Shown here piece by piece: positions 41,020 to 58,927 of a stretch of 64,000 nucleotides of DNA. Each line of letters starts with the position of its first letter. The stretch's first letter is position 1. The stretch lies in IMG/VR virus record IMGVR_UViG_3300042875_000419; one strand, written 5' to 3'. Below the pieces are notes generated by a model. That model did no database searches and was not told the origin of the DNA. It saw nothing but the letters and a program-made list of their open reading frames with translations. This DNA is from a virus (taxonomy: Duplodnaviria > Heunggongvirae > Uroviricota > Caudoviricetes). Both the position numbers and the translations under genes were made by a program.

Positions 41020-41060
41020 AATAACCTCTCAATAAAAAAAATAAAACCCAACTGACATTA

Positions 41061-41111
41061 TAAAACAAAAAACGCCGAATGTCAAGGCATAAAGCCTCTT
41101 TTTTCGGCGTT
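41061..41111 (-). terminator. Rho-independent terminator. 9-bp stem aacgccgaa/ttcggcgtt with an inner hairpin, followed by a T-run on the minus strand.
   Basis: aaaacaaaaaacgccgaatgtcaaggcataaagcctcttttttcggcgtt. Confidence 0.65.
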
Positions 41112-41798: not shown

Positions 41799-42056
41799 CT
41801 AAAGTTTTTCAATGTAGTTGTATTGAAGGTGCCGTTTAGCCTCATGTACCGAATGGGTTTTGTGGCCATTGATATAGATGACCTTCGGTGAATACACCAA
41901 AATCTCACCTTCAATCATTTTCAGGCGATAAAAGGTTTTACCTTTTGAATCAACTTCTTTGGTTCGGATATCACGGAAATTTTCAGCGAGACCGGACCAC
42001 ATGATAGTTTCACGAATCTCATCTGAGATTAACATACGAAAATAATTTGCGTTCAT
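41799..42056 (-). CDS. Hypothetical protein (85 aa).
   Basis: ORF only. Confidence 0.35.
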   Translation of the reverse strand: MNANYFRMLISDEIRETIMWSGLAENFRDIRTKEVDSKGKTFYRLKMIEGEILVYSPKVIYINGHKTHSVHEAKRHLQYNYIEKL

Positions 42057-42160
42057 AATATATTATAACATAAACCAAGTAGAATGGCAAGTGTTATTTC
42101 ACGTTTGTTGCAAAAAAACAACAGAAAAAGACGCACCAGGAACGTCCTGGAGCGCCTAGG

Positions 42161-45901: not shown

Positions 45902-47065
45902 TTAGAATGGCACTTCATCATCAGGTGAGGTCGGCATCACAGGTGCAGTGTTTGCCTCCGCCACTTTGATATCAACTTTCGAGTACAGGTCAAGGAACGA
46001 ATCTTTGGTTTCTTGGTCAAAACGATTCACACAGAGTTGAATTGCCTTCGAACGGTCTTTGAAGATTGAATAAGTCTTTGCAATGTGTACCAAACGGCGA
46101 GTGGAGACAATCTCATCAACACCACCTTCGGCGAATGTTTTACGAATAACGTCAGCCCACTTCACAAGGTTCTCGGCAAACTCATCATCATTCAACAATG
46201 GTTTGAGAATCTTGAGTTCAACCTTGGCTTCAGGATATTCCTGTTCAACGGTGATGTTGAAACGCTCAAGGAACGCATCATCAAGAATCTGTGACAGGTA
46301 ACGACCCTCTTCAGAGCCACGGCCTTTGGTGTTAGCAGTTGCAACAACGTTGAAGCCACGTTTTGGATAGATGTATTCACCAGACTTTTTGTTGAAGTAA
46401 GGTTTGCCTTCAAGAATACCTTGAAGGCACATCAGTTTGTTTGAACCACGGTCAACTTCGTCAATCAAGAGAATTGCACCACGTTTCATGGCAGTCATCA
46501 CAGGACCATCACGGTACACCACGTTACCATCGATAAGTGTTGGACCACCAATCAGGTCAGATTCATCAGTCTCAACGGAGATGTTCACACGGATACATTC
46601 ACGTTTGAGTGTGGCACACACTTGTTCAACCATGAGTGTCTTACCATTACCAGACATACCAGTAATGAACACAGGGAAGAATTCCTGTGAGAGTACAATG
46701 GAGGTCAGGTCTTTGTAGAAACCAAAGGGGACATAGCCTTGGTATTTTTCAGGGATAGAAGTATCTGCATGGTCTTCAAGTTTCTTTTGACGGAGAACAT
46801 GGACAGTGGCAGTTTGTGTCAATTCGACAACGGCAGGTTCTTCAACTGCAACATCACATGACACGGCGTTTGGTGCATTAGGAAGAAGGTATTGGCCACG
46901 ACCAGAACGAAACTCTTGGCGAGTGACAAACCAGAAGGGATAAGGAACAGACCGTTCATCAACGACACGTTGAATTTGGTCACGGCTCAAAATTGCATTC
47001 TCACCGAAAATCTCAGATGCGGCTTGGACGAATGCTTTTGCATTACGATTCATAAAGTTCTCCAT
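45902..47065 (-). CDS. cobS: CobS-like / MoxR-type AAA+ ATPase (387 aa).
   Basis: Walker A ITGMSGNGKTLMVEQVC, Walker B ILLIDEVDRG, and a MoxR/CobS-like arrangement. A common gene of T4-like cyanophages and pelagiphages. Confidence 0.6.
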   Translation of the reverse strand: MENFMNRNAKAFVQAASEIFGENAILSRDQIQRVVDERSVPYPFWFVTRQEFRSGRGQYLLPNAPNAVSCDVAVEEPAVVELTQTATVHVLRQKKLEDHADTSIPEKYQGYVPFGFYKDLTSIVLSQEFFPVFITGMSGNGKTLMVEQVCATLKRECIRVNISVETDESDLIGGPTLIDGNVVYRDGPVMTAMKRGAILLIDEVDRGSNKLMCLQGILEGKPYFNKKSGEYIYPKRGFNVVATANTKGRGSEEGRYLSQILDDAFLERFNITVEQEYPEAKVELKILKPLLNDDEFAENLVKWADVIRKTFAEGGVDEIVSTRRLVHIAKTYSIFKDRSKAIQLCVNRFDQETKDSFLDLYSKVDIKVAEANTAPVMPTSPDDEVPF

Positions 47066-47079
47066 AACAAGGTGTTTCT

Positions 47080-47108
47080 ATTATATCACAGTTTTTGCCA
47101 GATGGCAA
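47080..47108 (-). promoter_or_regulatory. Sigma70-type promoter TTGCCA-N17-TATAAT driving cobS (minus strand).
   Basis: Reverse complement reads TTGCCATCTGGCAAAAACTGTGATATAAT, about 15 nt upstream of RBS GGAGAAC and the ATG at 47065. Confidence 0.55.
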
Positions 47109-47216
47109 CCATTTTTTGGTAGACATGTTGCATGGAGACAACAATCATGTACCAGTTTATATCCATATTAACCTCTTTCCATTCTTGTTTGTTGCATAAG
47201 TAGGTATGTCCATCCT

Positions 47217-47468
47217 TCAAAGAAGGTTCACCTGTATATCCACCTTAGTGGCCACCATCTTTTCATCATAGTAGGTGTATGTGGTACCAAAACCACTAAC
47301 GTTTTCTCTTGCACAGGTTGCCAATGCATTCCATACTGCAACCCTCTGTGTGGTGAACACAAATTTATCTTCAAGGTCTTTCACCTTCATAATGAAGCCA
47401 ACACCATTCACGATAGCACGGAACTTCTGAGTGTTATTCAGACCCCAAATCAGTTGTTTTGTACGCAT
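47217..47468 (-). CDS. Hypothetical protein (83 aa).
   Basis: ORF downstream of the left terminator-promoter cassette. Confidence 0.4.
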   Translation of the reverse strand: MRTKQLIWGLNNTQKFRAIVNGVGFIMKVKDLEDKFVFTTQRVAVWNALATCARENVSGFGTTYTYYDEKMVATKVDIQVNLL

Positions 47469-47493
47469 TACATGCCTTTCACATTGAATAAGA

Positions 47494-47558
47494 CTCTATT
47501 ATACCAGAAACCAAAAAAAAGGCAACCATAAAGATTGCCTTTGTTGTTTTGGTACAAC
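47494..47558 (-). repeat. Terminator-promoter cassette, left copy. A hairpin (aaaggcaa/ttgccttt stem) is flanked by A and T runs. On the minus strand the 3' half of the stem (TTGCCT) serves as the -35, with a 16-nt T-rich spacer and a TATAAT -10.
   Basis: ctctattataccagaaaccaaaaaaaaggcaaccataaagattgcctttgttgttttggtacaaca. About 85% identical to the copy at 48968-49036. Confidence 0.6.
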
Positions 47559-47560
47559 AC

Positions 47561-48946
47561 TTAGACCAGAACTTCTCCGAGTGTCATTTTACTACCTTTT
47601 TTAAGATTGGCAGACTTCGCAACCAATTGGCAGTTATTTGTACCATCGGTACCTTTGGATGGACCACCAAAGGTGTGTGGAACAATGTGGTCTGCCGCCC
47701 ATTTTTCATGGTCGTTAATTTCCTCCTCTGGAATATGTTCACCAGTTATTGGACATACACCAGCTTGGCGTGCCCATGCTTCATACCTTTGTTGTGGTGT
47801 GAAAAGGCGTTCAGAGTCCCGTTGTGCTACGATACCGCTTTCAATAATTTCAAAGTCTTCCATAATGGCTTTATAACGTGCCGTTAATTCTAACTTTGAC
47901 ATTGTATTGCAACATGATGCATATGTACGGAGTTCACCTGATTTTGGAGATTCTACCAGAATCTTTTTACTTCCAAGGCGGCGATTCTCTGTACGCATAA
48001 ACCATTGAAATAGTTTTGCGTCATCGATAATACCAAAATTGTTTTTACGGAGATAATCAATCACCATATAGAAATTCAACATTGTCGAATGGTCTTTAAA
48101 TCCAGTTGTTGCATGTTTCTTGACAATCTTGCACATCGAATCAATACTAGAACTTGCATTCTTAGTTTGTTTTGATACAACAGAATCATCTTCATATGCA
48201 TTATCTTTATCAGATTTTGCAACACCATGTTCAGCACCAAAAGAAGAATAGATGGCAAGACCAACAACAAAATCGTCAATCAATCGGCGCTTCTCTTGTT
48301 TTTCCGTGGTAAATACTTTACGGAATTCATTCTTATGTTTCTTTACAGTGTCACGCACCCAACCAGCAAATGGCACCAAACGTGCATTACGTAATTCTTG
48401 TGCATTCAGTGAAACACCATCATTCACGTTAATGAAAATATTGGACAAATCATTACGTGTGGCAGAAACATACTCAGCAACAGTAATCTCGACACTACTT
48501 TCAATAAAATCTAAAAGAATTTTTGGATGCTTTTTGTATGTGTCATTCTTATCATTGATATCAACGACACCATTGGGCAATGGATATTGACCATGCTTTA
48601 ATTTAACAGAACCATTCAGATATTGGTCGATTGTGATAGTACGGTTATTTCCGTCAATGGAAATCCATTCAAAACCTTTTTGAAGCCAATCATTGTAGTA
48701 TTCATAATCTTTTGATTCTACCATGCATTTGTCCATACACTCTTTGATATTAGCAACAACAATTTTTGATGGTGCCATACCAGTAATAAGTGAGGTCATA
48801 TATGCTGTGGCTTGTTTTTCTTCCCATCGACTTTCAGATTGAAAAGATGTATCAAGAGCAACTCTTTCCCTAAAATACCGCATATTGGTGGAAATAAGTT
48901 TCATTGTACGATTCAACGCTACTGTTACACTATGTTGTTTTGCCAT
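47561..48946 (-). CDS. DUF262 (ParB-like nuclease, DGQQR-type) plus C-terminal HNH/DUF1524 His-Me finger: GmrSD-like nuclease. Start taken at Met 48946.
   Basis: N-terminal ISIDGNNRTITI (DGQQR-like). C-terminal DHIVPHTFGGPSKGTDGTNNCQLVAKSANLKKGSK (H-N-H). The track ORF start at 49000 would overlap the right repeat, so the internal MAKQ start is preferred. Confidence 0.65.
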   Translation of the reverse strand: MAKQHSVTVALNRTMKLISTNMRYFRERVALDTSFQSESRWEEKQATAYMTSLITGMAPSKIVVANIKECMDKCMVESKDYEYYNDWLQKGFEWISIDGNNRTITIDQYLNGSVKLKHGQYPLPNGVVDINDKNDTYKKHPKILLDFIESSVEITVAEYVSATRNDLSNIFINVNDGVSLNAQELRNARLVPFAGWVRDTVKKHKNEFRKVFTTEKQEKRRLIDDFVVGLAIYSSFGAEHGVAKSDKDNAYEDDSVVSKQTKNASSSIDSMCKIVKKHATTGFKDHSTMLNFYMVIDYLRKNNFGIIDDAKLFQWFMRTENRRLGSKKILVESPKSGELRTYASCCNTMSKLELTARYKAIMEDFEIIESGIVAQRDSERLFTPQQRYEAWARQAGVCPITGEHIPEEEINDHEKWAADHIVPHTFGGPSKGTDGTNNCQLVAKSANLKKGSKMTLGEVLV

Positions 48947-48967
48947 TTTAGGTCCAATTATTGAAAA

Positions 48968-49036
48968 CTCTATTATATACCATATATAAAAAAAAGGCAA
49001 CCATAAAGATTGCCTTTTGTTGTTTTTTTACAACAT
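48968..49036 (-). repeat. Terminator-promoter cassette, right copy. Same hairpin; -35 TTGCCT, 17-nt spacer, TATAAT. Drives the DUF262-HNH gene.
   Basis: ctctattatataccatatataaaaaaaaggcaaccataaagattgccttttgttgtttttttacaaca. Confidence 0.6.
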
Positions 49037-49037
49037 T

Positions 49038-49238
49038 TCACCAATGCTCATCGGAACAACCAATCACGTATTGATAAACACTCAGCCGACCTTCCGCACC
49101 AGTTTGGTACACCTCATTAGGTGTTTTACCATCAAATGCCTTGTTTGGTGAATCCCACCATCCATCAACCAGTTCGGAACGGCCTAGCATGGCATGAAGG
49201 TGTCGATTGATATCAGATTTTACGATTGGCTCTTTCAT
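49038..49238 (-). CDS. Hypothetical protein (66 aa).
   Basis: ORF ending just before the right cassette. Confidence 0.4.
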   Translation of the reverse strand: MKEPIVKSDINRHLHAMLGRSELVDGWWDSPNKAFDGKTPNEVYQTGAEGRLSVYQYVIGCSDEHW

Positions 49239-53223: not shown

Positions 53224-53389
53224 GAGCAGGATAAACCGCTTGAAATGTCATTCCGTTAGTATTAGAATAACGGAGTTTCAAGAATGCACGAACCTTGGAA
53301 ACTGATTCAAAATAACCAGTAGCTTCAATGAATGAACCGTCAAAATAAACAGAGTATTGTTTCATAAAAAAGTCCTTGTTGTGTTTCAA
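53198..53389 (-). CDS. Hypothetical protein (63 aa).
   Basis: ORF directly downstream of promoter copy 53398-53425. Confidence 0.35.
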   Translation of the reverse strand: MKHNKDFFMKQYSVYFDGSFIEATGYFESVSKVRAFLKLRYSNTNGMTFQAVYPALEQTVYEV

Positions 53390-53397
53390 TAGAGAGA

Positions 53398-53425
53398 ATT
53401 ATACAGGTTCCGTAGAGAATGGCAA
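53398..53425 (-). promoter_or_regulatory. Sigma70-type promoter module copy (TTGCCA-N16-TATAAT, minus strand).
   Basis: Reverse complement reads TTGCCATTCTCTACGGAACCTGTATAAT. The CCGGTCAAGTATTG element lies nearby at 53451-53464. Confidence 0.5.
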
Positions 53426-53588
53426 CCTACTAGAAAAGTTCTCCATCCGTCCGGTCAAGTATTGAGAAATAAGAATTTGAATAAATGGTAAAATATGGGA
53501 ATTATAAAGATTGTCCACATGAATACAAAAAGAAAAATGAAAACCGCTTTAAGTATATTAAGTATAAAGCCAAAAAAATCAAACATAA

Positions 53589-53849
53589 TTACCGCTTATA
53601 ATGAACAGGGCGCTCATAACGACCATCAGAATCCCGATAGAGAGAAACATAATGACCGTGCTTTGAACCATCATCAAAAGTATATGAGAAAGAAGAATCG
53701 TAAGAGAGCGGAGGGAAGTTAAGTTCCCAAGATTCCAATAATCCTTCTGATTCTAATGCAGAATTCAGAGTGGGAAAATAGTTTTGTTTTGAAACTTTAT
53801 ACATTGAATAAATCTCCATACATTTCTTCATCAAACGAATCAAAATCAT
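53589..53849 (-). CDS. Hypothetical protein (86 aa).
   Basis: ORF. Preferred over the overlapping plus ORF 53495..53722. Confidence 0.35.
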   Translation of the reverse strand: MILIRLMKKCMEIYSMYKVSKQNYFPTLNSALESEGLLESWELNFPPLSYDSSFSYTFDDGSKHGHYVSLYRDSDGRYERPVHYKR

Positions 53850-54039
53850 TCCGAATCCATTCGATGGTGTATCCGTTCAGTGCATAGTTATCAGCCATAG
53901 CCTGGAGACGGCGGAGGGCTTGTTCAGCATTCAGACCCATGCTTGCCATTAGGCTCAGGTTGCTCCAGTGAGCAAAGTTATTGGAGTCCTTATGTGCGGA
54001 GACTTGAATGAATTGTTTGGGTGTGTTTGTTTGTGTCAT
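53797..54039 (-). CDS. Hypothetical protein (80 aa). First gene downstream of the DnaA-box/promoter region.
   Basis: ATG at 54039 lies 7 nt downstream of the TATAAT at 54047-54052. Confidence 0.4.
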   Translation of the reverse strand: MTQTNTPKQFIQVSAHKDSNNFAHWSNLSLMASMGLNAEQALRRLQAMADNYALNGYTIEWIRNDFDSFDEEMYGDLFNV

Positions 54040-54046
54040 GGATGGT

Positions 54047-54074
54047 ATTATAGCGGTACTGGTAGGAATGGCAA
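54047..54074 (-). promoter_or_regulatory. Sigma70-type promoter module copy (TTGCCA-N16-TATAAT, minus strand) with the DnaA-box array 45-90 bp upstream.
   Basis: Reverse complement reads TTGCCATTCCTACCAGTACCGCTATAATACCATCCATG. Confidence 0.55.
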
Positions 54075-54118
54075 TGGAATATTTTGCGGAAAACTTCGTC
54101 TGTTGTATAAAAGAGACT

Positions 54119-54161
54119 GTGGATAAGTGTGTGGATAAGTTGTGGATAAGTTGTGGATATC
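54119..54161. promoter_or_regulatory. Array of four co-oriented DnaA boxes with 11-12 bp phasing. Three are perfect TGTGGATAA (i.e. TTATCCACA); the fourth is TGTGGATAT.
   Basis: ctgTGTGGATAAgtgTGTGGATAAgtTGTGGATAAgtTGTGGATATc, read directly from the sequence. Confidence 0.6.
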
Positions 54162-54485
54162 TTTGAGGACCTTAATAACTGACCAGTCAGTCAGTAGGTC
54201 GCTGGATGTGTCGCGGTGTGTCGGAAGTGTTGGGTTGCTATTTAGTCTTAGTTGCTGGCTGCCAACGCCTGAAAATTTCACAGAGTGTCTCAGAGGTGAC
54301 AGCACGTTTCCGCACGTTCCAATGGGTTCCAGTGGGTTCCAGCACGGTTTGGAATGTTTTGCTCTGTGTGGGTCTCAGAATGTCTCAGAGTGGTGCTGGA
54401 TGCCCATTGGAAAACCATCAGGCAGCCTCTACGTCCACCCCCAGTCTTGCTGTTCGAACCAATGGATCCATTGTACTCTAAAAAA

Positions 54486-54518
54486 GACCACCTGGCAACC
54501 ACCAGGTGTCTCATCTAC
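54486..54518 (-). terminator. Rho-independent terminator (7-bp stem cacctgg/ccaggtg, loop caacca, T-run on the minus strand) ending the minus early operon of the GC-rich island.
   Basis: aaaaaagaccacctggcaaccaccaggtg, 7 nt downstream of the stop at 54525. Confidence 0.6.
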
Positions 54519-54524
54519 GCAACA

Positions 54525-54746
54525 TCACTCCTCTTCGGAGAATCCTTCAATCAGCACTATTTGGTCCTCATAATAGTTCCGTTCCTCCTCCATGCACAGG
54601 TTGCCCTCGACCTCGAACACCAGGTCCGTGGCTGTCTTTTCGTCACATCCAGTGGAGGTCATAACGAATTGAATAATGTCCTCAAACGTATCACCATTGG
54701 TGATGCACGATTCGATATCGATAATCAAGTCTTTAAATTTGCTCAT
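54525..54746 (-). CDS. Small acidic protein (73 aa).
   Basis: ORF in the GC-rich island. Confidence 0.4.
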   Translation of the reverse strand: MSKFKDLIIDIESCITNGDTFEDIIQFVMTSTGCDEKTATDLVFEVEGNLCMEEERNYYEDQIVLIEGFSEEE

Positions 54747-54870
54747 TAGTCGCTTTCATTTTGTGTGTGGTGCGGGCGGTGAATGTAATATCAGGAATTT
54801 TATGCTCTCTCCGAGCCAACCAATTCACCATATACTTCCAACCAAATGCTTGAGTGTTTGTCATAATCAT
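54733..54870 (-). CDS. Small protein (45 aa) with AAAGGA RBS. The track ORF start at 54930 was rejected.
   Basis: ctataAAGGAatgattATG. The longer ORF overlaps the ATPase gene. Confidence 0.3.
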   Translation of the reverse strand: MIMTNTQAFGWKYMVNWLARREHKIPDITFTARTTHKMKATNEQI

Positions 54871-54886
54871 TCCTTTATAGTAAAAA

Positions 54887-55768
54887 TCAACCGCAGATGG
54901 TGTATTCTGCAAGGTCTTTCCACTTGGCACCAGCAGACTTGCGGATTTTAGTGGTCTGGATGAGTGTACGGAGTGACAACTCTTTCACCTCATCTTGGAG
55001 GTTGTCAATCAGGTCCAGTGCATCGGACTTTTCTGTCTTCGAATACTCAGGCATAAACTCTGGGAGGGACACCAGGTGGCGCATACGCTCCACTTTTTGC
55101 TCCGTTGTCATTGTCAGGTCAACAGCCATCGAACGGGTGATGATGGCTTGGTCCATCGAATCAGAGGACAGGTTAGAGATAAACACCACCCGGCCTTTGA
55201 ATTCAAAGGATTGTGGGAGTTCGTCATCCTTCATGTCGGCACGCCATGAGATGACACGGCGGGAGTAGGAGTCCAGAGCACCTTTGAGCAGGTTCAGAGA
55301 CACTGGATCCTTCAGCACCGAGTCGCAGTCGTCAAAAACAACCACGCCGTCCTTGTTTTCATACAGTGTACGGTACAGGCCCTTTGGAGTGGAGTAGCCC
55401 TTGATAACACGGTAGGACTTGGTGGTGTTGATTTTGCCACCGACCTCGAATTCATCCAGGAGGGTGACATCCTTCATGCCGGCATCATTCAGTGCCTTGG
55501 TGACGGTATGGGACTTGCCGAGACCACCGGGACCAGATACAACCACCGAGGACTGGTCACCTTTCACCAACATGGCGACCATGTCGGAGACAAAGCCGAA
55601 CCGCTGGTTGATGGTGAAGCGGGACTCCTTGACATTGACAGGAGCACCACCGGTGGCACCTGTAGCCTTGCGGATCACATAGTCCATGTGTTCCTTTTTG
55701 GCACGCTTGACCACCTTGCCATTGATGTTGGCAACGTATTTACCACCGACAAACTTCACTTCAATCAT
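54887..55768 (-). CDS. P-loop NTPase (AAA+/RecA-like core, 294 aa from Met 55768), possibly replication-associated.
   Basis: Walker A VVVSGPGGLGKSHTV, Walker B VVVFDDCD, sensor-like VVFISNL. The true start is inferred because promoter copy 55838-55866 lies inside the longer track ORF. RBS GAAAGGAAAA. Confidence 0.5.
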   Translation of the reverse strand: MIEVKFVGGKYVANINGKVVKRAKKEHMDYVIRKATGATGGAPVNVKESRFTINQRFGFVSDMVAMLVKGDQSSVVVSGPGGLGKSHTVTKALNDAGMKDVTLLDEFEVGGKINTTKSYRVIKGYSTPKGLYRTLYENKDGVVVFDDCDSVLKDPVSLNLLKGALDSYSRRVISWRADMKDDELPQSFEFKGRVVFISNLSSDSMDQAIITRSMAVDLTMTTEQKVERMRHLVSLPEFMPEYSKTEKSDALDLIDNLQDEVKELSLRTLIQTTKIRKSAGAKWKDLAEYTICG

Positions 55769-55837
55769 AATTTTCCTTTCAATTGCAATACCATGTTGAA
55801 AAACACCACCGGGAGAGGTGCTTTTGAATATGGTATC

Positions 55838-55866
55838 GATTATACCAGAACCAGCAGGTTCTGGCA
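55838..55866 (-). promoter_or_regulatory. Sigma70-type promoter module copy (TTGCCA-N17-TATAAT, minus).
   Basis: Reverse complement reads TTGCCAGAACCTGCTGGTTCTGGTATAAT, adjacent to CCGGTCAAGTATTGG. Confidence 0.55.
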
Positions 55867-55887
55867 ACCAATACTTGACCGGACAGG

Positions 55888-56175
55888 TCAACAATCAGCA
55901 TCAAAATCCGCCCACTCTTGGGCTTCGTCCGGCTGACCGTCATCCTCATCCTCGGTCTCCATCTCATCCTCGGTGAGACCTTCCACGAAAACGTCTTCCT
56001 CGGTCAAGGAATCCACGTAGTCGTTAAAACCGCACCGATAGGCTACCGGGTCGACCTCACGCAGGACCTCGGAAGCGGAATAGGTCATTCCGCACAGTTC
56101 CACCGGACCTTCACAGTCGTCCAGCATCTCATCAAACCATGCATGGGCGGTGCGCTCAGATATTAAACGGGACAT
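55888..56175 (-). CDS. Early protein with a strongly acidic C-terminal tail (95 aa).
   Basis: C-terminus EDEMETEDEDDGQPDEAQEWADFDADC. Promoter copy immediately upstream. Confidence 0.45.
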   Translation of the reverse strand: MSRLISERTAHAWFDEMLDDCEGPVELCGMTYSASEVLREVDPVAYRCGFNDYVDSLTEEDVFVEGLTEDEMETEDEDDGQPDEAQEWADFDADC

Positions 56176-56207
56176 TTTCTTTCCTTTTCTTTCACAATAT
56201 GGATTGG

Positions 56208-56235
56208 ATTATACAGGTTCCGGTAGTATTGTCAA
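56208..56235 (-). promoter_or_regulatory. Sigma70 consensus promoter copy (TTGACA-N16-TATAAT, minus).
   Basis: Reverse complement reads TTGACAATACTACCGGAACCTGTATAAT, preceded by CCGGTCAAGTATTGG. Confidence 0.6.
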
Positions 56236-56255
56236 CCAATACTTGACCGGAATGG

Positions 56256-56468
56256 TCAACTATCAAATTCGCAGGACTGGTCCAGGTACAGGCTCAGTTC
56301 CTCGGCTTGGTTCAGGATTCGAGCCACTTCCATGGCCTCATCCTCACATTGGAACCGTTCTACGGACTCGCCAGTGTGGACACCGTTGGACAATGGGGAC
56401 CAGCGGATCACATGGAAGTCCATGGTTTTGTCGTGGTGTTCTACAGTGTAGGTTTTTGTGTTCATCAT
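56256..56468 (-). CDS. Small protein (71 aa from the MM start).
   Basis: ATG 7 nt downstream of the -10 of promoter copy 56475-56502. Confidence 0.35.
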   Translation of the reverse strand: MMNTKTYTVEHHDKTMDFHVIRWSPLSNGVHTGESVERFQCEDEAMEVARILNQAEELSLYLDQSCEFDS

Positions 56469-56474
56469 GTCTTG

Positions 56475-56502
56475 GATTCTACAGGTTCCAGCAGGTTTGG
56501 CA
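56475..56502 (-). promoter_or_regulatory. Promoter module copy (TTGCCA-N16-TAGAAT, minus).
   Basis: Reverse complement reads TTGCCAAACCTGCTGGAACCTGTAGAAT. Confidence 0.45.
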
Positions 56503-56596
56503 ACCATTTTGGATATACTTGACCGGAGTGCTGGGTTATTATTATGACGCCCAGCCTCCACGTCCACCCCGCCTTCCGCTTCGAATCATGGTACCA

Positions 56597-56624
56597 ATTA
56601 TACCAGAACCAGCAGGGAAGGCAA
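56597..56624 (-). promoter_or_regulatory. Promoter module copy (TTGCCT-N16-TATAAT, minus), tandem with the previous copy.
   Basis: Reverse complement reads TTGCCTTCCCTGCTGGTTCTGGTATAAT. Confidence 0.45.
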
Positions 56625-56630
56625 GAGATA

Positions 56631-56655
56631 ACCCAGCCCGTTGCTGGGTTATTAG
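56631..56655 (-). terminator. Hairpin aacccagc-ccgtt-gctgggtt directly after the stop of the acidic protein gene. Putative terminator.
   Basis: 8-bp inverted repeat seen in the sequence. Weak U-tract. Confidence 0.35.
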
Positions 56656-56656
56656 A

Positions 56657-56893
56657 TTAGAACGAATCGATTATTTCCTGAATATCGTCAAAATTCTCAG
56701 AAATAAGAGAACTTTCGTATTCATCGTCTTCTTCATTGTAATCATAATATATCTCGAAGACCGGGGTTTCTAATACTTCTTCATCAATTGGGTGAACATA
56801 GTGTTCAATATAGTATGCAACCTGAACATTGTCAGAATTGAATACAGAATACTCATTACATTCCACACTTGAATACGTTTGTACTACTTTCAT
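56657..56893 (-). CDS. Highly acidic small protein (78 aa).
   Basis: D/E/Y-rich (EEVLETPVFEIYYDYNEEDDEYESSLISENFDDIQEIIDSF). Confidence 0.45.
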   Translation of the reverse strand: MKVVQTYSSVECNEYSVFNSDNVQVAYYIEHYVHPIDEEVLETPVFEIYYDYNEEDDEYESSLISENFDDIQEIIDSF

Positions 56894-56924
56894 TTTTCAC
56901 TTTCGTTTCGTTTACAATGATGTT

Positions 56925-56952
56925 ATTATATCATAGCAGGCCAGAATGGCAA
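56925..56952 (-). promoter_or_regulatory. Promoter module copy (TTGCCA-N16-TATAAT, minus) for the acidic protein gene.
   Basis: Reverse complement reads TTGCCATTCTGGCCTGCTATGATATAAT. Confidence 0.5.
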
Positions 56953-56992
56953 TATAGCACAATAGTTCTCCATTCTTCCGGTCAACTATTGG

Positions 56993-57020
56993 TTGCCATT
57001 CTCGCTGGTTCTGGTACAAT
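56993..57020 (+). promoter_or_regulatory. Promoter module copy (TTGCCA-N16-TACAAT, plus), first of four plus-strand copies. Divergent from copy 56925-56952.
   Basis: CCGGTCAACTATTGG-TTGCCATTCTCGCTGGTTCTGGTACAAT-CCATTCCATG. Confidence 0.55.
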
Positions 57021-57027
57021 CCATTCC

Positions 57028-57228
57028 ATGATAAAATCAATTCAACCAACCGACCGCAAGGTCCAAGCCCAATACCTGCTGGACGGTGTATTGGTTACCA
57101 TTTGCAAGCCTGCCCGCCCCCGTAGGTCGGAACGGACTTGGTCGGCTGGTGCCAAGTATTCGGTCGCCAACCTTGGAGCCAAGGCTGCCACCCTTCGGAA
57201 TGTTGGTCTCTCCCATGCCAAAGGTTGA
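57028..57228 (+). CDS. Small basic protein (66 aa). Its ATG is 7 nt downstream of the -10, so the mRNA may be leaderless.
   Basis: Internal Met of track ORF 56869..57228. Fits exactly between promoter copies. Confidence 0.35.
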   Translation: MIKSIQPTDRKVQAQYLLDGVLVTICKPARPRRSERTWSAGAKYSVANLGAKAATLRNVGLSHAKG

Positions 57229-57256
57229 CCAATCCGGTCAAGTATCCAAAGGATGG

Positions 57257-57284
57257 TTGCCATTCTCGCTGGTTCTGGTACAAT
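57257..57284 (+). promoter_or_regulatory. Promoter module copy (TTGCCA-N16-TACAAT, plus).
   Basis: CCGGTCAAGTATCC...TTGCCATTCTCGCTGGTTCTGGTACAAT-CCATTCCATA. Confidence 0.55.
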
Positions 57285-57315
57285 CCATTCCATAGTAAAT
57301 TGAAAAGGTTGCAAA

Positions 57316-57558
57316 ATGTACCAGCCCCATATAGTCCTCCGGCACTGCCGCTCCTACCTCCGGAAAGCCCGTGGCGGATTCTACGCCGAGGTGTACCATG
57401 GTCAAGAGGCTATTTTCCAGGTGTATGCCGATGGAACGGTGCTTTGGTTGCATCCTTCCCAAGGCTTGGTCCGACCTGAAAATGTAATGGGTGGGCGGCT
57501 CCTCTCCCATGTACGGTACCAAGGTCGGTCCCTCCTGCGGTATCATGGCGTACAATAA
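57316..57558 (+). CDS. Small basic protein (80 aa).
   Basis: ORF downstream of the promoter copy, with leader containing aaaagg. Confidence 0.35.
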   Translation: MYQPHIVLRHCRSYLRKARGGFYAEVYHGQEAIFQVYADGTVLWLHPSQGLVRPENVMGGRLLSHVRYQGRSLLRYHGVQ

Positions 57559-57590
57559 CCCAGCCAGCCGGTCAACTATTCCACGGATGG

Positions 57591-57618
57591 TTGCCATTTC
57601 CTCTGGTTCTGGTATAAT
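57591..57618 (+). promoter_or_regulatory. Promoter module copy (TTGCCA-N16-TATAAT, plus).
   Basis: CCGGTCAACTATTCC...TTGCCATTTCCTCTGGTTCTGGTATAAT. Confidence 0.55.
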
Positions 57619-57648
57619 CCAACCATCAAATCAAGCAAAGGTCAAAAA

Positions 57649-58398
57649 ATGAATTTACTCTCCACTGGTAACCCTAAGGTCCTCAAAGGCCTGGCTCAGG
57701 GTTACAATACCTACATCCTGCACCTCGCTCCAGCCGACCTGTCCGGTTTTGAGACCTGCGCCAAACGGACCAAAGGTTGCACGGCTGCCTGCCTGAACCT
57801 TGCTGGCCGTGGCGGTATGTTCAAAAAAGGTGAAACCACCAACATTATCCAGCAGGCTCGAATCCGCAAAACCCAAATGTTTTTCGAGGCTCGCACCGGT
57901 TTTATGGAATGGCTGGTCAAGGATATTGAATTGGCTATTAAACAATCGGCTAAAATCAATATGGTTCCAGTGATTCGCCTTAATGGCACTTCGGACCTAG
58001 CCTTTGAAAAGTATGCCGCCATCCGTAATGGCGTGGAATATAAAAACATTTTCATGGCATTCCCTGAAATTCAATTCTACGATTATACCAAGATTCTCGG
58101 ACGTAAAATTGCCGATTATCCCAATTATCACCTGACATTCTCAGCCGCCGATGGTAATGATTCGGACGTTGAAAAGGCTATTGCCCAAGGTTATAATGTA
58201 GCCGTGGTGTTTGGTATTAAAAAGACCCTCCCAATGCCGGCTGATTATCTGAGTATGCCAGTATTTAATGGCGATGAGTCGGACCTCCGTTTTCTGGATC
58301 CAAAAGGCTCCGTTATCGGCTTATATGCCAAAGGCAAAGCCAAAAAAGATACCACTGGTTTTGTAAAGTATCCCGCCATTATGATGGCATCCGTTTAA
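57649..58398 (+). CDS. Three-Cys-motif protein (249 aa). Possibly the phage Gp37/Gp68 (DUF5131) family.
   Basis: N-terminal cluster TCAKRTKGCTAAC (C-x6-C-x3-C). The family assignment is from memory and is not verified. Confidence 0.35.
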   Translation: MNLLSTGNPKVLKGLAQGYNTYILHLAPADLSGFETCAKRTKGCTAACLNLAGRGGMFKKGETTNIIQQARIRKTQMFFEARTGFMEWLVKDIELAIKQSAKINMVPVIRLNGTSDLAFEKYAAIRNGVEYKNIFMAFPEIQFYDYTKILGRKIADYPNYHLTFSAADGNDSDVEKAIAQGYNVAVVFGIKKTLPMPADYLSMPVFNGDESDLRFLDPKGSVIGLYAKGKAKKDTTGFVKYPAIMMASV

Positions 58399-58414
58399 AC
58401 TGAAAGGAAACATT

Positions 58415-58636
58415 ATGTCCAAAATCAAACTCCCATTCGAATGCATGGTTGGAACCGAAAATGAGGTGGTAACCAATCCATTCTCTGGAGAATCAATTAC
58501 ATTATCTCCAGAGGCTGTGGCAGTATATGATACCATTATGGGTTGCCAAATGGTCGGTGATTATAAGAGAATGCAAAAGGGGCTGGATTGGTTTCGCCGT
58601 CATTATGCCCGAGAATATATGGTTCTCCTGGATTGA
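58415..58636 (+). CDS. Hypothetical protein (73 aa).
   Basis: ORF 16 nt after the preceding gene, with AGGAAAC RBS. Confidence 0.4.
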   Translation: MSKIKLPFECMVGTENEVVTNPFSGESITLSPEAVAVYDTIMGCQMVGDYKRMQKGLDWFRRHYAREYMVLLD

Positions 58637-58669
58637 CCCTCCCTCTGGCTGGAGAACTAAGGTACTAGG

Positions 58670-58698
58670 TTGCCATTTTCACGCCCATCCGCCATAAT
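58670..58698 (+). promoter_or_regulatory. Promoter module copy (TTGCCA-N17-CATAAT, plus).
   Basis: TTGCCATTTTCACGCCCATCCGCCATAAT-CCATTCCATG. Confidence 0.45.
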
Positions 58699-58729
58699 CC
58701 ATTCCATGTTGAATTTGAAAGGAAACAAA

Positions 58730-58927
58730 ATGACAAATCAAGACTTGGCCAAGGCACTGGTGGCTGCCATTCAGGACCGCCAATTCGCCCGTGGCGAGGA
58801 ACTCCACGCCGCCAACTCTTACACCGTTGGCTACCTTGAGGGTCTCATTGGTACACTCTGCCACCTCAGCCCCAAGGCTAAAAAAGAGGTTATGAGTACC
58901 TTGGTTTACATTAACGCAAACAAGTAA
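58730..58927 (+). CDS. Small protein (65 aa) with GAAAGGAAAC RBS. An in-frame ATG also sits right after the -10.
   Basis: MTNQDLAKAL... Internal start of track ORF 58670..58927. Confidence 0.4.
   Translation: MTNQDLAKALVAAIQDRQFARGEELHAANSYTVGYLEGLIGTLCHLSPKAKKEVMSTLVYINANK

What the first reader, a model, noticed from the sequence alone, without database searches (positions are those of the whole stretch)
47494..49036. GmrSD-like DUF262-HNH nuclease gene bracketed by duplicated ~65-bp terminator-promoter cassettes
The only gene between two ~85%-identical direct repeats (47494-47558 and 48968-49036) encodes a DUF262 DGQQR-like N-domain with a C-terminal HNH/DUF1524 His-Me finger, i.e. the GmrSD type IV restriction architecture. 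Each repeat is a compact bifunctional element: an A-run, a hairpin and a T-run that can terminate in both directions. On the minus strand its 3' stem half (TTGCCT) doubles as a -35, followed by a 16-17-nt T-rich spacer and a TATAAT. The gene therefore sits as a self-contained transcription unit inserted between two otherwise adjacent small genes. That is the signature of a mobile or recently acquired cassette, analogous to freestanding homing endonuclease insertions. A phage-borne GmrSD homolog could attack the modified DNA of competing phages, giving superinfection exclusion, or act as a homing-type nuclease.
Basis: partly seen in the sequence, partly recalled or inferred. Interest (0 to 1): 0.72.

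Follow-up and report, generated by a model that had tools for sequence, protein, structure and literature searches.

The report
Nuclease gene between duplicated promoter-terminator cassettes
A T4-like phage carries an optional DNA-cutting enzyme gene sitting between two copies of a short terminator-plus-promoter element, and close relatives lack the gene and have one copy, which is the already described "PeSL" way that T4-type phages swap accessory genes.

Summary
Two direct repeats (47494-47558 and 48968-49036) are 85.5% identical with a 30-nt exact core. They bracket one minus-strand gene, 47561-48946, of 461 aa. Each repeat is a hairpin plus U8 terminator whose 3' arm holds the -35 (TTGCCT), followed 16-17 nt later by TATAAT.

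At least eight related phage contigs have the neighbours orf66 and orf83 adjacent with one chimeric cassette and no gene. Three contigs are filled like the window. In every flank gene the window is closer to empty genomes than to filled ones.

The same gene family is bracketed by duplicated local cassettes of unrelated sequence in two further lineages, each with empty-site relatives. This matches PeSLs (promoter-early stem-loops), the known modular-shuffling elements of T4-type phages.

Its biochemical target is unknown. Classical homing is disfavoured because there is no flank co-conversion. I rate this a new member of known kinds, of moderate interest.

The parts
48947..49037 (-). Upstream cassette (copy B), between the orf66 stop and the DUF262-HNH start. 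It holds a mini-hairpin TGTTG-N8-CAACA (49035-49018), the main hairpin (core 49014-48996), U8 (48995-48988), the -35 TTGCCT (49000-48995, inside the 3' arm), a 17-nt spacer and the -10 TATAAT (48977-48972).
47561..48946 (-). DUF262-HNH nuclease gene, 461 aa. The DUF262/ParB-Srx-like N-domain covers about residues 14-253 (48907-48188), with FQS..RW at residues 35-41 and invariant DGNNR at 98-102. A helical middle region follows. The Cas9-type HNH covers residues 398-454 (47755-47585), with D419 H420 N438 N447 K450.
47469..47560 (-). Downstream cassette (copy A), between the DUF262-HNH stop and the orf83 start. It holds the mini-hairpin (47558-47542), the main hairpin (core 47539-47521), U8 (47520-47513), the -35 TTGCCT (47525-47520), a 16-nt spacer and the -10 TATAAT (47503-47498).
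49038..49238 (-). Upstream neighbour orf66 (66 aa, weak DUF2384/Xre_MbcA_ParS_C match). In empty-site relatives it is followed directly by one cassette and then orf83.
47217..47468 (-). Downstream neighbour orf83 (83 aa, no family match), transcribed from the copy A promoter. This gene and its cassette are themselves absent in L018/L019.

Best explanation
This is a PeSL-type (promoter-early stem-loop) gene cassette in the early, hyperplastic region of a T4-like myovirus of the cyanophage type.

Cassette. Each ~65-90-nt element does two jobs on the gene (minus) strand. A 10-11-bp hairpin plus U8 ends transcription of the upstream gene. A sigma-70-type promoter starts transcription of the next gene; its -35 TTGCCT is built into the 3' arm of that hairpin, and TATAAT lies 16-17 nt downstream. 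The cargo is therefore a plug-in transcription unit that leaves its neighbours' expression intact. This step is inferred from sequence motifs and has not been measured.

Gain and loss. Presence or absence of the cargo is produced by homologous recombination within the repeated cassettes. This could happen between co-infecting genomes, or through excision and integration of a circle carrying the gene plus one cassette. Either route leaves two cassettes around the gene in filled genomes and one chimeric cassette (left half of copy B plus right half of copy A) in empty genomes. The junction structure is shown. The recombination route is inferred from the published PeSL model.

Cargo. The protein is a working DNA endonuclease with an N-terminal DUF262 (ParB/Srx-like, NTP-binding) domain joined to a Cas9-type HNH catalytic domain, so it is built like GmrSD, BrxU and SspE. 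I think it most likely acts as an NTP-gated nuclease in DNA-level conflict, against the DNA of co-infecting phages or of the host. That function is inferred from architecture only.
For: Anatomy.
- The repeat and hairpin are unique to these two sites in the window.
- The promoter belongs to a 15-member class, TTGCCW-N16/17-TAYAAT, against 0.14 expected, all within 42-57.6 kb.
- The hairpins fold well on the gene strand.

Empty and filled sites.
- L002, L005, L007, L008, L010, L011, L012 and L013 have orf66, one cassette and orf83. In L011 the single cassette equals the left half of window copy B plus the right half of copy A.
- L107 and L110 from metagenomes are also empty.
- L014, L015 and L016 are filled like the window.

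Incongruence with flank relatedness. In every flank gene the window is closer to empty genomes than to filled L015. The identities to the empty L011 (for orf83, L011 and L008) against filled L015 are: AAA33 98.5 vs 85.6%, orf68 100 vs 92.8%, orf66 90 vs 82.6%, orf83 96.4-96.8 vs 92.5%, cobS 95.4 vs 90.7%.

Synonymous divergence, window against L015. Four-fold-site identity is 86.6% (162/187) in the gene and 76.7% (240/313) in pooled flanks, p=0.007. For orf66, just across copy B, it is 52% (p=0.0003).

Replication in other lineages.
- The hairpin GGCGTCCTAGGCTTGACATTAGGACGCC brackets a 50%-identical homologue in L129 and L131 and is single in about 18 empty contigs.
- L151 is filled and L152 is empty next to cobS.
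- L144 has the same hairpin pair around an unrelated 420-aa ORF.

T4-like genome: gp32, gp59, PhoH, CobS and baseplate wedge proteins.

PeSL definition and model: PMC2839356 and PMC4122927.

Protein.
- Pfam on the window protein: GmrSD_N 7.5e-5, HNH_4 9.6e-5.
- Across 34 family members: HNH 32, HNH_4 32, GmrSD_N 16, best 2.6e-8.
- PADLOC NsnA, a DUF262 protein, 1.2e-12.
- Motif residues are invariant.
- 36 synonymous against 3 non-synonymous codon changes against L015.
- 292 clusters (50% identity) at E<=1e-30.
Against: - The structure cannot say whether the gene was inserted or deleted. An empty site equals the predicted deletion product.
- The synonymous-site argument for lateral transfer is only moderate. 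orf83 (88%) and orf68 (94%) are as similar as the gene.
- In the window the hairpin has only these two copies, so no third recombination partner was seen here. The rest of the genome is unknown.
- In several relatives (L017, L018) the homologue sits in an operon with overlapping or near-abutting start and stop codons and no flanking repeats. The gene therefore also moves or persists without cassettes.
- Promoter and terminator activity, mini-circles and nuclease activity are all untested.
- The Pfam GmrSD_N score of the window protein itself (23.4 bits) is below the gathering cut-off of 33.2.
Confidence: 0.7

Rival explanations
1. Freestanding homing endonuclease. The HNH protein cuts genomes that lack it near the orf66/orf83 junction or in nearby cobS. 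Double-strand-break repair from a filled genome then copies the gene in.
For: - The gene is an HNH nuclease with its own promoter in an intergenic site and is sporadic among close relatives.
- Homologues lie at different positions around cobS. There is [X]-orf83-cobS in the window, X-AAA33-72-79-cobS in L018, cobS-X in 26 loci and cobS-o126-X in L020 and L023.
- A GIY-YIG/NUMOD3-like ORF lies just upstream of the orf83 homologue in L006.
- The family is bracketed by direct repeats far more often than neighbouring genes, 7/53 against 3/353, p=4e-5.
Against: - There is no co-conversion. Divergence jumps at copy B, and orf66 next to it is the most diverged gene between filled genomes.
- In every flank gene the window is closer to empty genomes.
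- Filled genomes share no diagnostic flank polymorphism: 0 in 446 nt upstream and 1 in 913 nt downstream.
- A 461-aa protein with an NTPase-type domain and a full-length architecture conserved over 292 clusters is unlike known Seg and Mob proteins.
Confidence: 0.15
2. An ordinary vertically inherited gene that is repeatedly lost. The cassettes are only this genome's normal intergenic signals, and the empty genomes arose by several independent deletions between them. No gain or lateral movement is involved.
For: - Composite cassettes are common in the early region.
- Recombination between direct repeats always yields the chimeric cassette that is seen.
- In one large clade the gene and cobS have diverged from the window to a similar extent, 44-51% amino-acid identity.
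Against: - The filled state does not follow flank relatedness.
- Synonymous divergence of the gene between the two filled lineages is lower than that of the pooled flanks, p=0.007.
- The homologue in L018 is 57% identical while cobS there is 83% identical at the DNA level.
- The same bracket-versus-single pattern recurs with unrelated cassettes in other lineages.
Confidence: 0.12
3. The repeats are a long target-site duplication made by a transposition-like insertion, possibly started by the nuclease cutting an extruded hairpin or cruciform.
For: - In three lineages the bracket is a duplicate of the local resident cassette, whatever its sequence.
Against: - The non-core halves of the two copies differ from the empty-site cassette by several substitutions and indels, and these differences are conserved between the window and L014.
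- No transposase or integrase is present.
- An unrelated cargo is bracketed in the same way in L144.
- Duplications of 36-70 nt are not known for any transposition system (my own knowledge).
Confidence: 0.03

Closest known systems
PeSLs (promoter-early stem-loops) of T4-type phages RB49/phi1, PST/T4 and nt-1/KVP40 (Arbiol et al. 2010, PMC2839356; Comeau et al. 2014, PMC4122927)
   Same: - It is a short composite stem-loop terminator plus sigma-70-like early promoter.
- It is repeated in hyperplastic regions of a T4-like genome.
- It flanks non-essential genes that are present or absent between close relatives.
- The empty site carries one chimeric element.
   Different: - Here the -35 lies inside the 3' arm of the terminator hairpin (in the loop in L021, L022 and L037). 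In the published PeSLs the stem-loop lies just upstream of the promoter.
- The -35 consensus is TTGCCA/T.
- The host phage is of the cyanophage type, where PeSL shuffling was considered but judged unlikely for S-PM2 (PMC4503421).
- Mini-circles were not tested.
- The cargo is a 461-aa nuclease and not a small ORFan.
GmrSD / BrxU / SspE family (DUF262 + DUF1524) of bacterial type IV restriction and phosphorothioate-sensing nucleases
   Same: - The N-terminal DUF262 domain has a ParB/Srx fold and a DGxxR nucleotide-pocket motif.
- A helical middle region follows.
- The C-terminal nuclease is a His-Me finger with a DH(I/V)xP motif.
   Different: - The nuclease domain is Cas9-type HNH_4/HNH, not DUF1524.
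- The motif is DGNNR, not DGQQR.
- The gene is encoded in lytic phage contigs. A pattern scan of 185,579 cellular genomes found no relative.
- Substrate and NTP dependence are unknown.
Cyanophage 'HNH endonuclease' genes: S-SSM7 gp035, its S-SSM6a homologue and Sf-FS3 ORF32 (the last noted as Cas9-HNH plus DUF262 in PMC12284385)
   Same: They show the same two-domain architecture in T4-like cyanomyoviruses, and they are the only cultured-phage relatives found.
   Different: They are only 25% identical, lie in a different genomic neighbourhood, and have no functional data.
Freestanding homing endonucleases of T-even phages (Seg, GIY-YIG; Mob, HNH)
   Same: They are intergenic nuclease genes with their own promoters, sporadic among relatives, and found in the same kind of genome region.
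   Different: There is no flank co-conversion or flank polymorphism linked to presence of the gene. The protein is much larger and carries an NTPase-type domain.

Membership tests
PeSL (promoter-early stem-loop) cassettes of T4-type phages | One short intergenic element combines a stem-loop terminator with a sigma-70-like early promoter. | tested here: met
   Hairpin plus U8 at -13 to -13.9 kcal/mol, z = -3.8 to -4.5. TTGCCT-16/17-TATAAT follows. Activity was not measured.
PeSL (promoter-early stem-loop) cassettes of T4-type phages | Many related copies are clustered in hyperplastic regions of a T4-like genome. | tested here: met
   15 promoters of one class against 0.14 expected, all within 42-57.6 kb. 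A second repeat family has 10 or more copies at 53.4-58.7 kb. T4-like genes are present. This particular hairpin sequence has only 2 copies in the window.
PeSL (promoter-early stem-loop) cassettes of T4-type phages | The elements lie at the borders of indels between closely related genomes, and the empty site carries one chimeric element. | tested here: met
   Eight IMG/VR contigs are empty and three are filled. The L011 junction equals the left half of copy B plus the right half of copy A. The pattern is replicated with other cassettes.
PeSL (promoter-early stem-loop) cassettes of T4-type phages | Recombination between flanking copies yields excised mini-circles. | not testable with these tools
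   This needs inverse PCR or long reads from infected cells or virions.
GmrSD-family type IV restriction enzymes | N-terminal DUF262 domain (ParB/Srx fold) with the DGQQR motif. | tested here: met
GmrSD-family type IV restriction enzymes | C-terminal DUF1524 nuclease domain. | tested here: not met
   There is no DUF1524 match in any of the 34 members. They match HNH, HNH_4 and HNH_5 instead. The PDB profile search finds chiefly Cas9 HNH domains, best 1.2e-8, with only weak other HNH matches such as McrA.
GmrSD-family type IV restriction enzymes | Modification-dependent, NTP-stimulated DNA cleavage. | not testable with these tools
   This is a biochemical property.
GmrSD-family type IV restriction enzymes | Encoded in bacterial or archaeal genomes, typically in defence islands. 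| tested here: not met
   All contexts seen are phage contigs. The pattern scan of genome contigs found no relative; its sensitivity is limited to three motifs.
Freestanding homing endonuclease genes | An intergenic nuclease gene with its own expression signals, sporadic among close relatives. | tested here: met
Freestanding homing endonuclease genes | Spread by break repair leaves co-converted flanks, so that genomes carrying the gene share flank ancestry or polymorphisms. | tested here: not met
   In every flank gene the window is closer to empty genomes. There are 0 and 1 diagnostic sites in 446 and 913 nt. Synonymous divergence jumps at copy B.
Freestanding homing endonuclease genes | The enzyme cleaves the allele that lacks the gene. 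| not testable with these tools
   This needs a cleavage assay on empty-locus DNA.

The most novel reading that the evidence does not exclude
The DUF262-HNH protein may not be passive cargo. It may be a new kind of selfish, NTP-gated, structure- or site-directed nuclease that promotes recombination at terminator-promoter hairpins, or near cobS. That would drive its own capture between duplicated local cassettes.

Two results would then be explained. The family is bracketed by direct repeats about 15 times more often than neighbouring genes (7/53 against 3/353). The brackets are built from three unrelated local cassette sequences in separate lineages.
Probability: 0.1. Interest if true: 0.75.

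Novelty: new member of a known kind. Interest (0 to 1): 0.42.

Why it matters
- It gives a clean, sequence-resolved example of PeSL-type modular shuffling outside the coliphage and vibriophage pairs where it was defined. Filled and empty alleles are documented, and the pattern is replicated in three lineages of environmental phages of the cyanophage type.
- It shows that terminator-embedded promoters act as portable cassette borders for sizeable genes.
- It flags a large family with no functional data (292 clusters at 50% identity), found here only in phage contigs, of GmrSD-like DUF262-HNH nucleases. These are candidates for phage-against-phage or phage-against-host DNA conflict.
- Because natural filled and empty alleles exist, the fitness effect and target of the nuclease can be tested directly.

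Tried and rejected
1. My first synonymous-site comparison used gene coordinates one base too long, so the '99.1% four-fold identity' was out of frame. One search gives the corrected value, 86.6%. The claim of very recent transfer was downgraded accordingly.
2. Close-relative peptide scans for the window protein found nothing in viral contigs or metagenome contigs. The family alignment was needed.
3. The family pattern scan of genome contigs found no relative.
5. No DUF1524 match was found.
6. A search for flank polymorphisms diagnostic of filled genomes was negative.
7. I guessed that a tRNA lies downstream of the L131 cassette. ARAGORN found none.
8. I asked whether the 420-aa ORF in L144 is a distant DUF262 relative. 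hhalign gave probability 0.1 and Pfam gave no match.
9. Megablast of the locus against cultured phages matched only 137 nt of cobS.
10. Many exact matches to the 19-nt hairpin in metagenomes are unrelated terminator-like hairpins and were not counted.

Full report
**Observation.** All genes in this region are on the minus strand. The two repeats are real. A global alignment of 47494-47558 against 48968-49036 gives 85.5% identity. The exact core is 30 nt, 47513-47542 = 48988-49017. The 19-nt hairpin occurs only at these two places in 64 kb, against 0.00 expected. One gene lies between the repeats, 47561-48946, 461 aa from the ATG. Homologues start at the same point, so the longer TTG-started ORF that runs into the hairpin is not the gene.

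**Cassette anatomy on the gene strand.** After the upstream stop codon comes a small hairpin, TGTTG-N8-CAACA. Next is a 10-11-bp hairpin, GGCAAUC-UUUAU-GGUUGCC, extended by A/U pairs and followed by U8. The two hairpins of copy B together fold at -18 kcal/mol, z = -4.7. The -35 hexamer TTGCCT is the 3' arm of the main hairpin. TATAAT follows after 16 nt in copy A and 17 nt in copy B.

The plus-strand transcript folds more weakly, at -8.8 to -9.7 against -13 to -13.9 kcal/mol. A G.U pair becomes a C.A mismatch, and the U tract is interrupted.

**The cassette in its genome.** The promoter is a member of a genome-specific class, TTGCCW-N16/17-TAYAAT. There are 15 matches against 0.14 expected, all between 42 and 57.6 kb. 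Many carry hairpins just upstream of the -35 or enclosing it. A second, larger family of promoter/stem-loop repeats fills 53.4-58.7 kb.

The window encodes gp32, gp59, PhoH, CobS, 2OG-Fe(II) oxygenases and baseplate wedge proteins. Its only DNA matches among cultured phages are cobS of Synechococcus phages. It is a T4-like myovirus of the cyanophage type, and this is its early hyperplastic region.

**Empty and filled sites.** An exact search for the hairpin in IMG/VR found 13 contigs. In L002, L005, L007, L008, L010, L011, L012 and L013 the end of orf66 is followed by a single cassette and then orf83, with no DUF262 gene. In L011, the closest relative (about 96% identity), the single cassette is exactly the left half of window copy B joined to the right half of copy A. 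Metagenome contigs L107 and L110 add two further empty sites. L014, L015 and L016 carry the gene (99% protein identity) between both cassettes, as the window does.

The same hairpin cassette also occurs between other genes, after an RNA ligase gene in L006, L009, L099, L103, L111 and L122.

**History of the locus.** Structure alone cannot separate gain from loss, so I compared divergence. An early calculation was out of frame and is withdrawn (see 'tried and rejected').

The corrected figures for the window against filled L015 are as follows:
- The gene is 97.1% identical at the DNA level, with 36 synonymous and 3 non-synonymous codon changes.
- Four-fold-site identity in the gene is 86.6% (162/187).
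- Four-fold-site identity in pooled flanks is 76.7% (240/313), p=0.007.
- By flank gene it is 52% in orf66 (p=0.0003), 76% in cobS (p=0.01), 88% in orf83 and 94% in orf68. The last two are not significantly different from the gene.

A more robust result is that in every flank gene the window is closer to the empty genomes L011 or L008 than to filled L015. Filled genomes also share no diagnostic flank polymorphism. Presence of the gene is therefore uncoupled from the ancestry of its flanks, and the change of history occurs at the cassettes. This fits cassette-bounded exchange. It argues against classical homing, which co-converts flanks.

**Generality.** The family alignment found 72 viral loci. 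In 7 of 53 loci with enough flanking sequence, the homologue is bracketed by direct repeats, against 3 of 353 other ORFs in the same loci (p=4e-5; the lineages are not fully independent). The repeats are local stem-loop/promoter cassettes of unrelated sequence, often with the -35 in the hairpin loop or arm.

Two of these cases were followed up:
- The hairpin GGCGTCCTAGGCTTGACATTAGGACGCC is double around the gene in L129 and L131. It is single, with matching outer flanks, in about 18 contigs.
- L151 is filled and L152 is empty, next to cobS.

In L144 the same hairpin pair brackets an unrelated 420-aa ORF. The cassettes are therefore general borders and are not specific to this cargo.

Homologues also sit at different positions around cobS. 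In L017 and L018 they lie inside operons without repeats.

**The protein.** Pfam gives GmrSD_N at 7.5e-5 (below the gathering score) and HNH_4 at 9.6e-5 for the window protein. Across 34 relatives, HNH and HNH_4 match 32, HNH_5 matches 25 and GmrSD_N matches 16, and none matches DUF1524. PADLOC's best hit is the DUF262 protein NsnA at 1.2e-12. A PDB profile search finds chiefly Cas9 HNH domains, best 1.2e-8; the few other hits are weak HNH matches, such as a group II intron maturase and McrA.

Invariant residues include F35, W41, D98-G-N-N-R102, Q183, E184, N187, D419, H420, N438, N447 and K450. These correspond to the FQR..W, DGQQR and DH..P..N..N motifs described for GmrSD (PMC4619093).

The family has 292 clusters (50% identity) at E<=1e-30. 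A pattern scan of 185,579 cellular genomes found no relative. The only cultured-phage relatives are in S-SSM7, S-SSM6a and Sf-FS3, at 25% identity. The Sf-FS3 protein was noted in 2025 as Cas9-HNH plus DUF262, without a function (PMC12284385).

**Comparison with known systems.** The cassette meets the testable defining features of PeSLs (PMC2839356, PMC4122927). It differs in that the -35 is embedded in the terminator stem and in the type of host phage. A study of cyanophage S-PM2 had judged PeSL shuffling unlikely there (PMC4503421).

The protein works like a GmrSD-family enzyme in its architecture. It fails the DUF1524 feature and the cellular-defence-island feature, so I do not file it as a member of that family.

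**Verdict.** This is a PeSL-bounded, optional DUF262-HNH nuclease cassette. It is a new member of known kinds and of moderate interest. The enzyme's target, and whether it helps its own spread, remain open.

Noticed in passing
window 53389-58737: A second, larger family of repeated promoter/stem-loop cassettes (hairpin TTGACC..GGTCAA, then TGGTTGCCA-N16-TATAAT/TACAAT). It has 10 or more copies on both strands between small ORFs. Divergent promoters lie back to back at 56925-56952 (-) and 56993-57020 (+).
   Followed up: partly
window 42090-42125, 47108-47135, 47542-47558, 49018-49035 (minus strand): A small inverted repeat, TGTTG-N8-CAACA, recurs about 10-25 nt upstream of four early promoters (those ahead of the 85-aa ORF at 41799-42056, cobS, orf83 and the DUF262-HNH gene). 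It could be part of the terminators or a protein-binding site.
   Followed up: partly
window 49038-49238 (-): orf66 has a near-threshold match to the antitoxin domain Xre_MbcA_ParS_C/DUF2384 (6e-5, 23.4 bits against a cut-off of 24.5). It is the fastest-diverging gene of the neighbourhood: against L015, four-fold identity is 52% and 14 of 30 changed codons are non-synonymous.
   Followed up: partly
window 49238/49239 junction; L005 2483-3346; L008 3880-4505: Relatives carry two or three extra small genes (67, 141 and 88 aa) between orf68 and orf66, where the window's genes abut. These genes are joined by overlapping or abutting stop and start codons, without cassettes. They show a second kind of indel in the same region.
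   Followed up: partly
L018 8285-8470 against window 47060-47240: In L018 and L019 orf83 and its cassette are missing. The orf66 homologue is followed directly by the cobS promoter region. There the DUF262-HNH homologue (57% identity) sits upstream of the AAA_33 kinase-like gene, with overlapping stop and start codons.
   Followed up: partly
L006 5412-5933 (-) and 7921-7973: A 173-aa ORF with GIY-YIG-like sequence and a weak NUMOD3 match (a homing-endonuclease type) lies on the opposite strand just upstream of the orf83 homologue. The window's exact hairpin cassette occurs 1.6 kb downstream, after an RNA ligase gene.
   Followed up: partly
L144 277-1685: Two copies of the hairpin cassette GGCGTCCTAGGCTTGACATTAGGACGCC bracket an unrelated 420-aa ORF with no Pfam match.
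   Followed up: partly
57 loci including the window (L014, L017, L018, L020-L079): The DUF262-HNH family stays near cobS in 29 of the 57 loci with flanks (the window among them), but at different relative positions: two genes upstream, immediately downstream or two genes downstream. L018 adds a position four genes upstream.
   Followed up: partly
window 41057-41110 (-): A perfect TTGACA-17-TATAAT promoter has its -35 between the arms of a hairpin (AACGCCGAA...TTCGGCGTT) that is followed by a T run. This is another terminator-embedded promoter design.
   Followed up: no
L093-L128 (metagenome contigs): The exact 19-nt hairpin also occurs in many unrelated contigs as terminator-like hairpins with different flanks. 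An exact match to the hairpin alone does not indicate homology.
   Followed up: no
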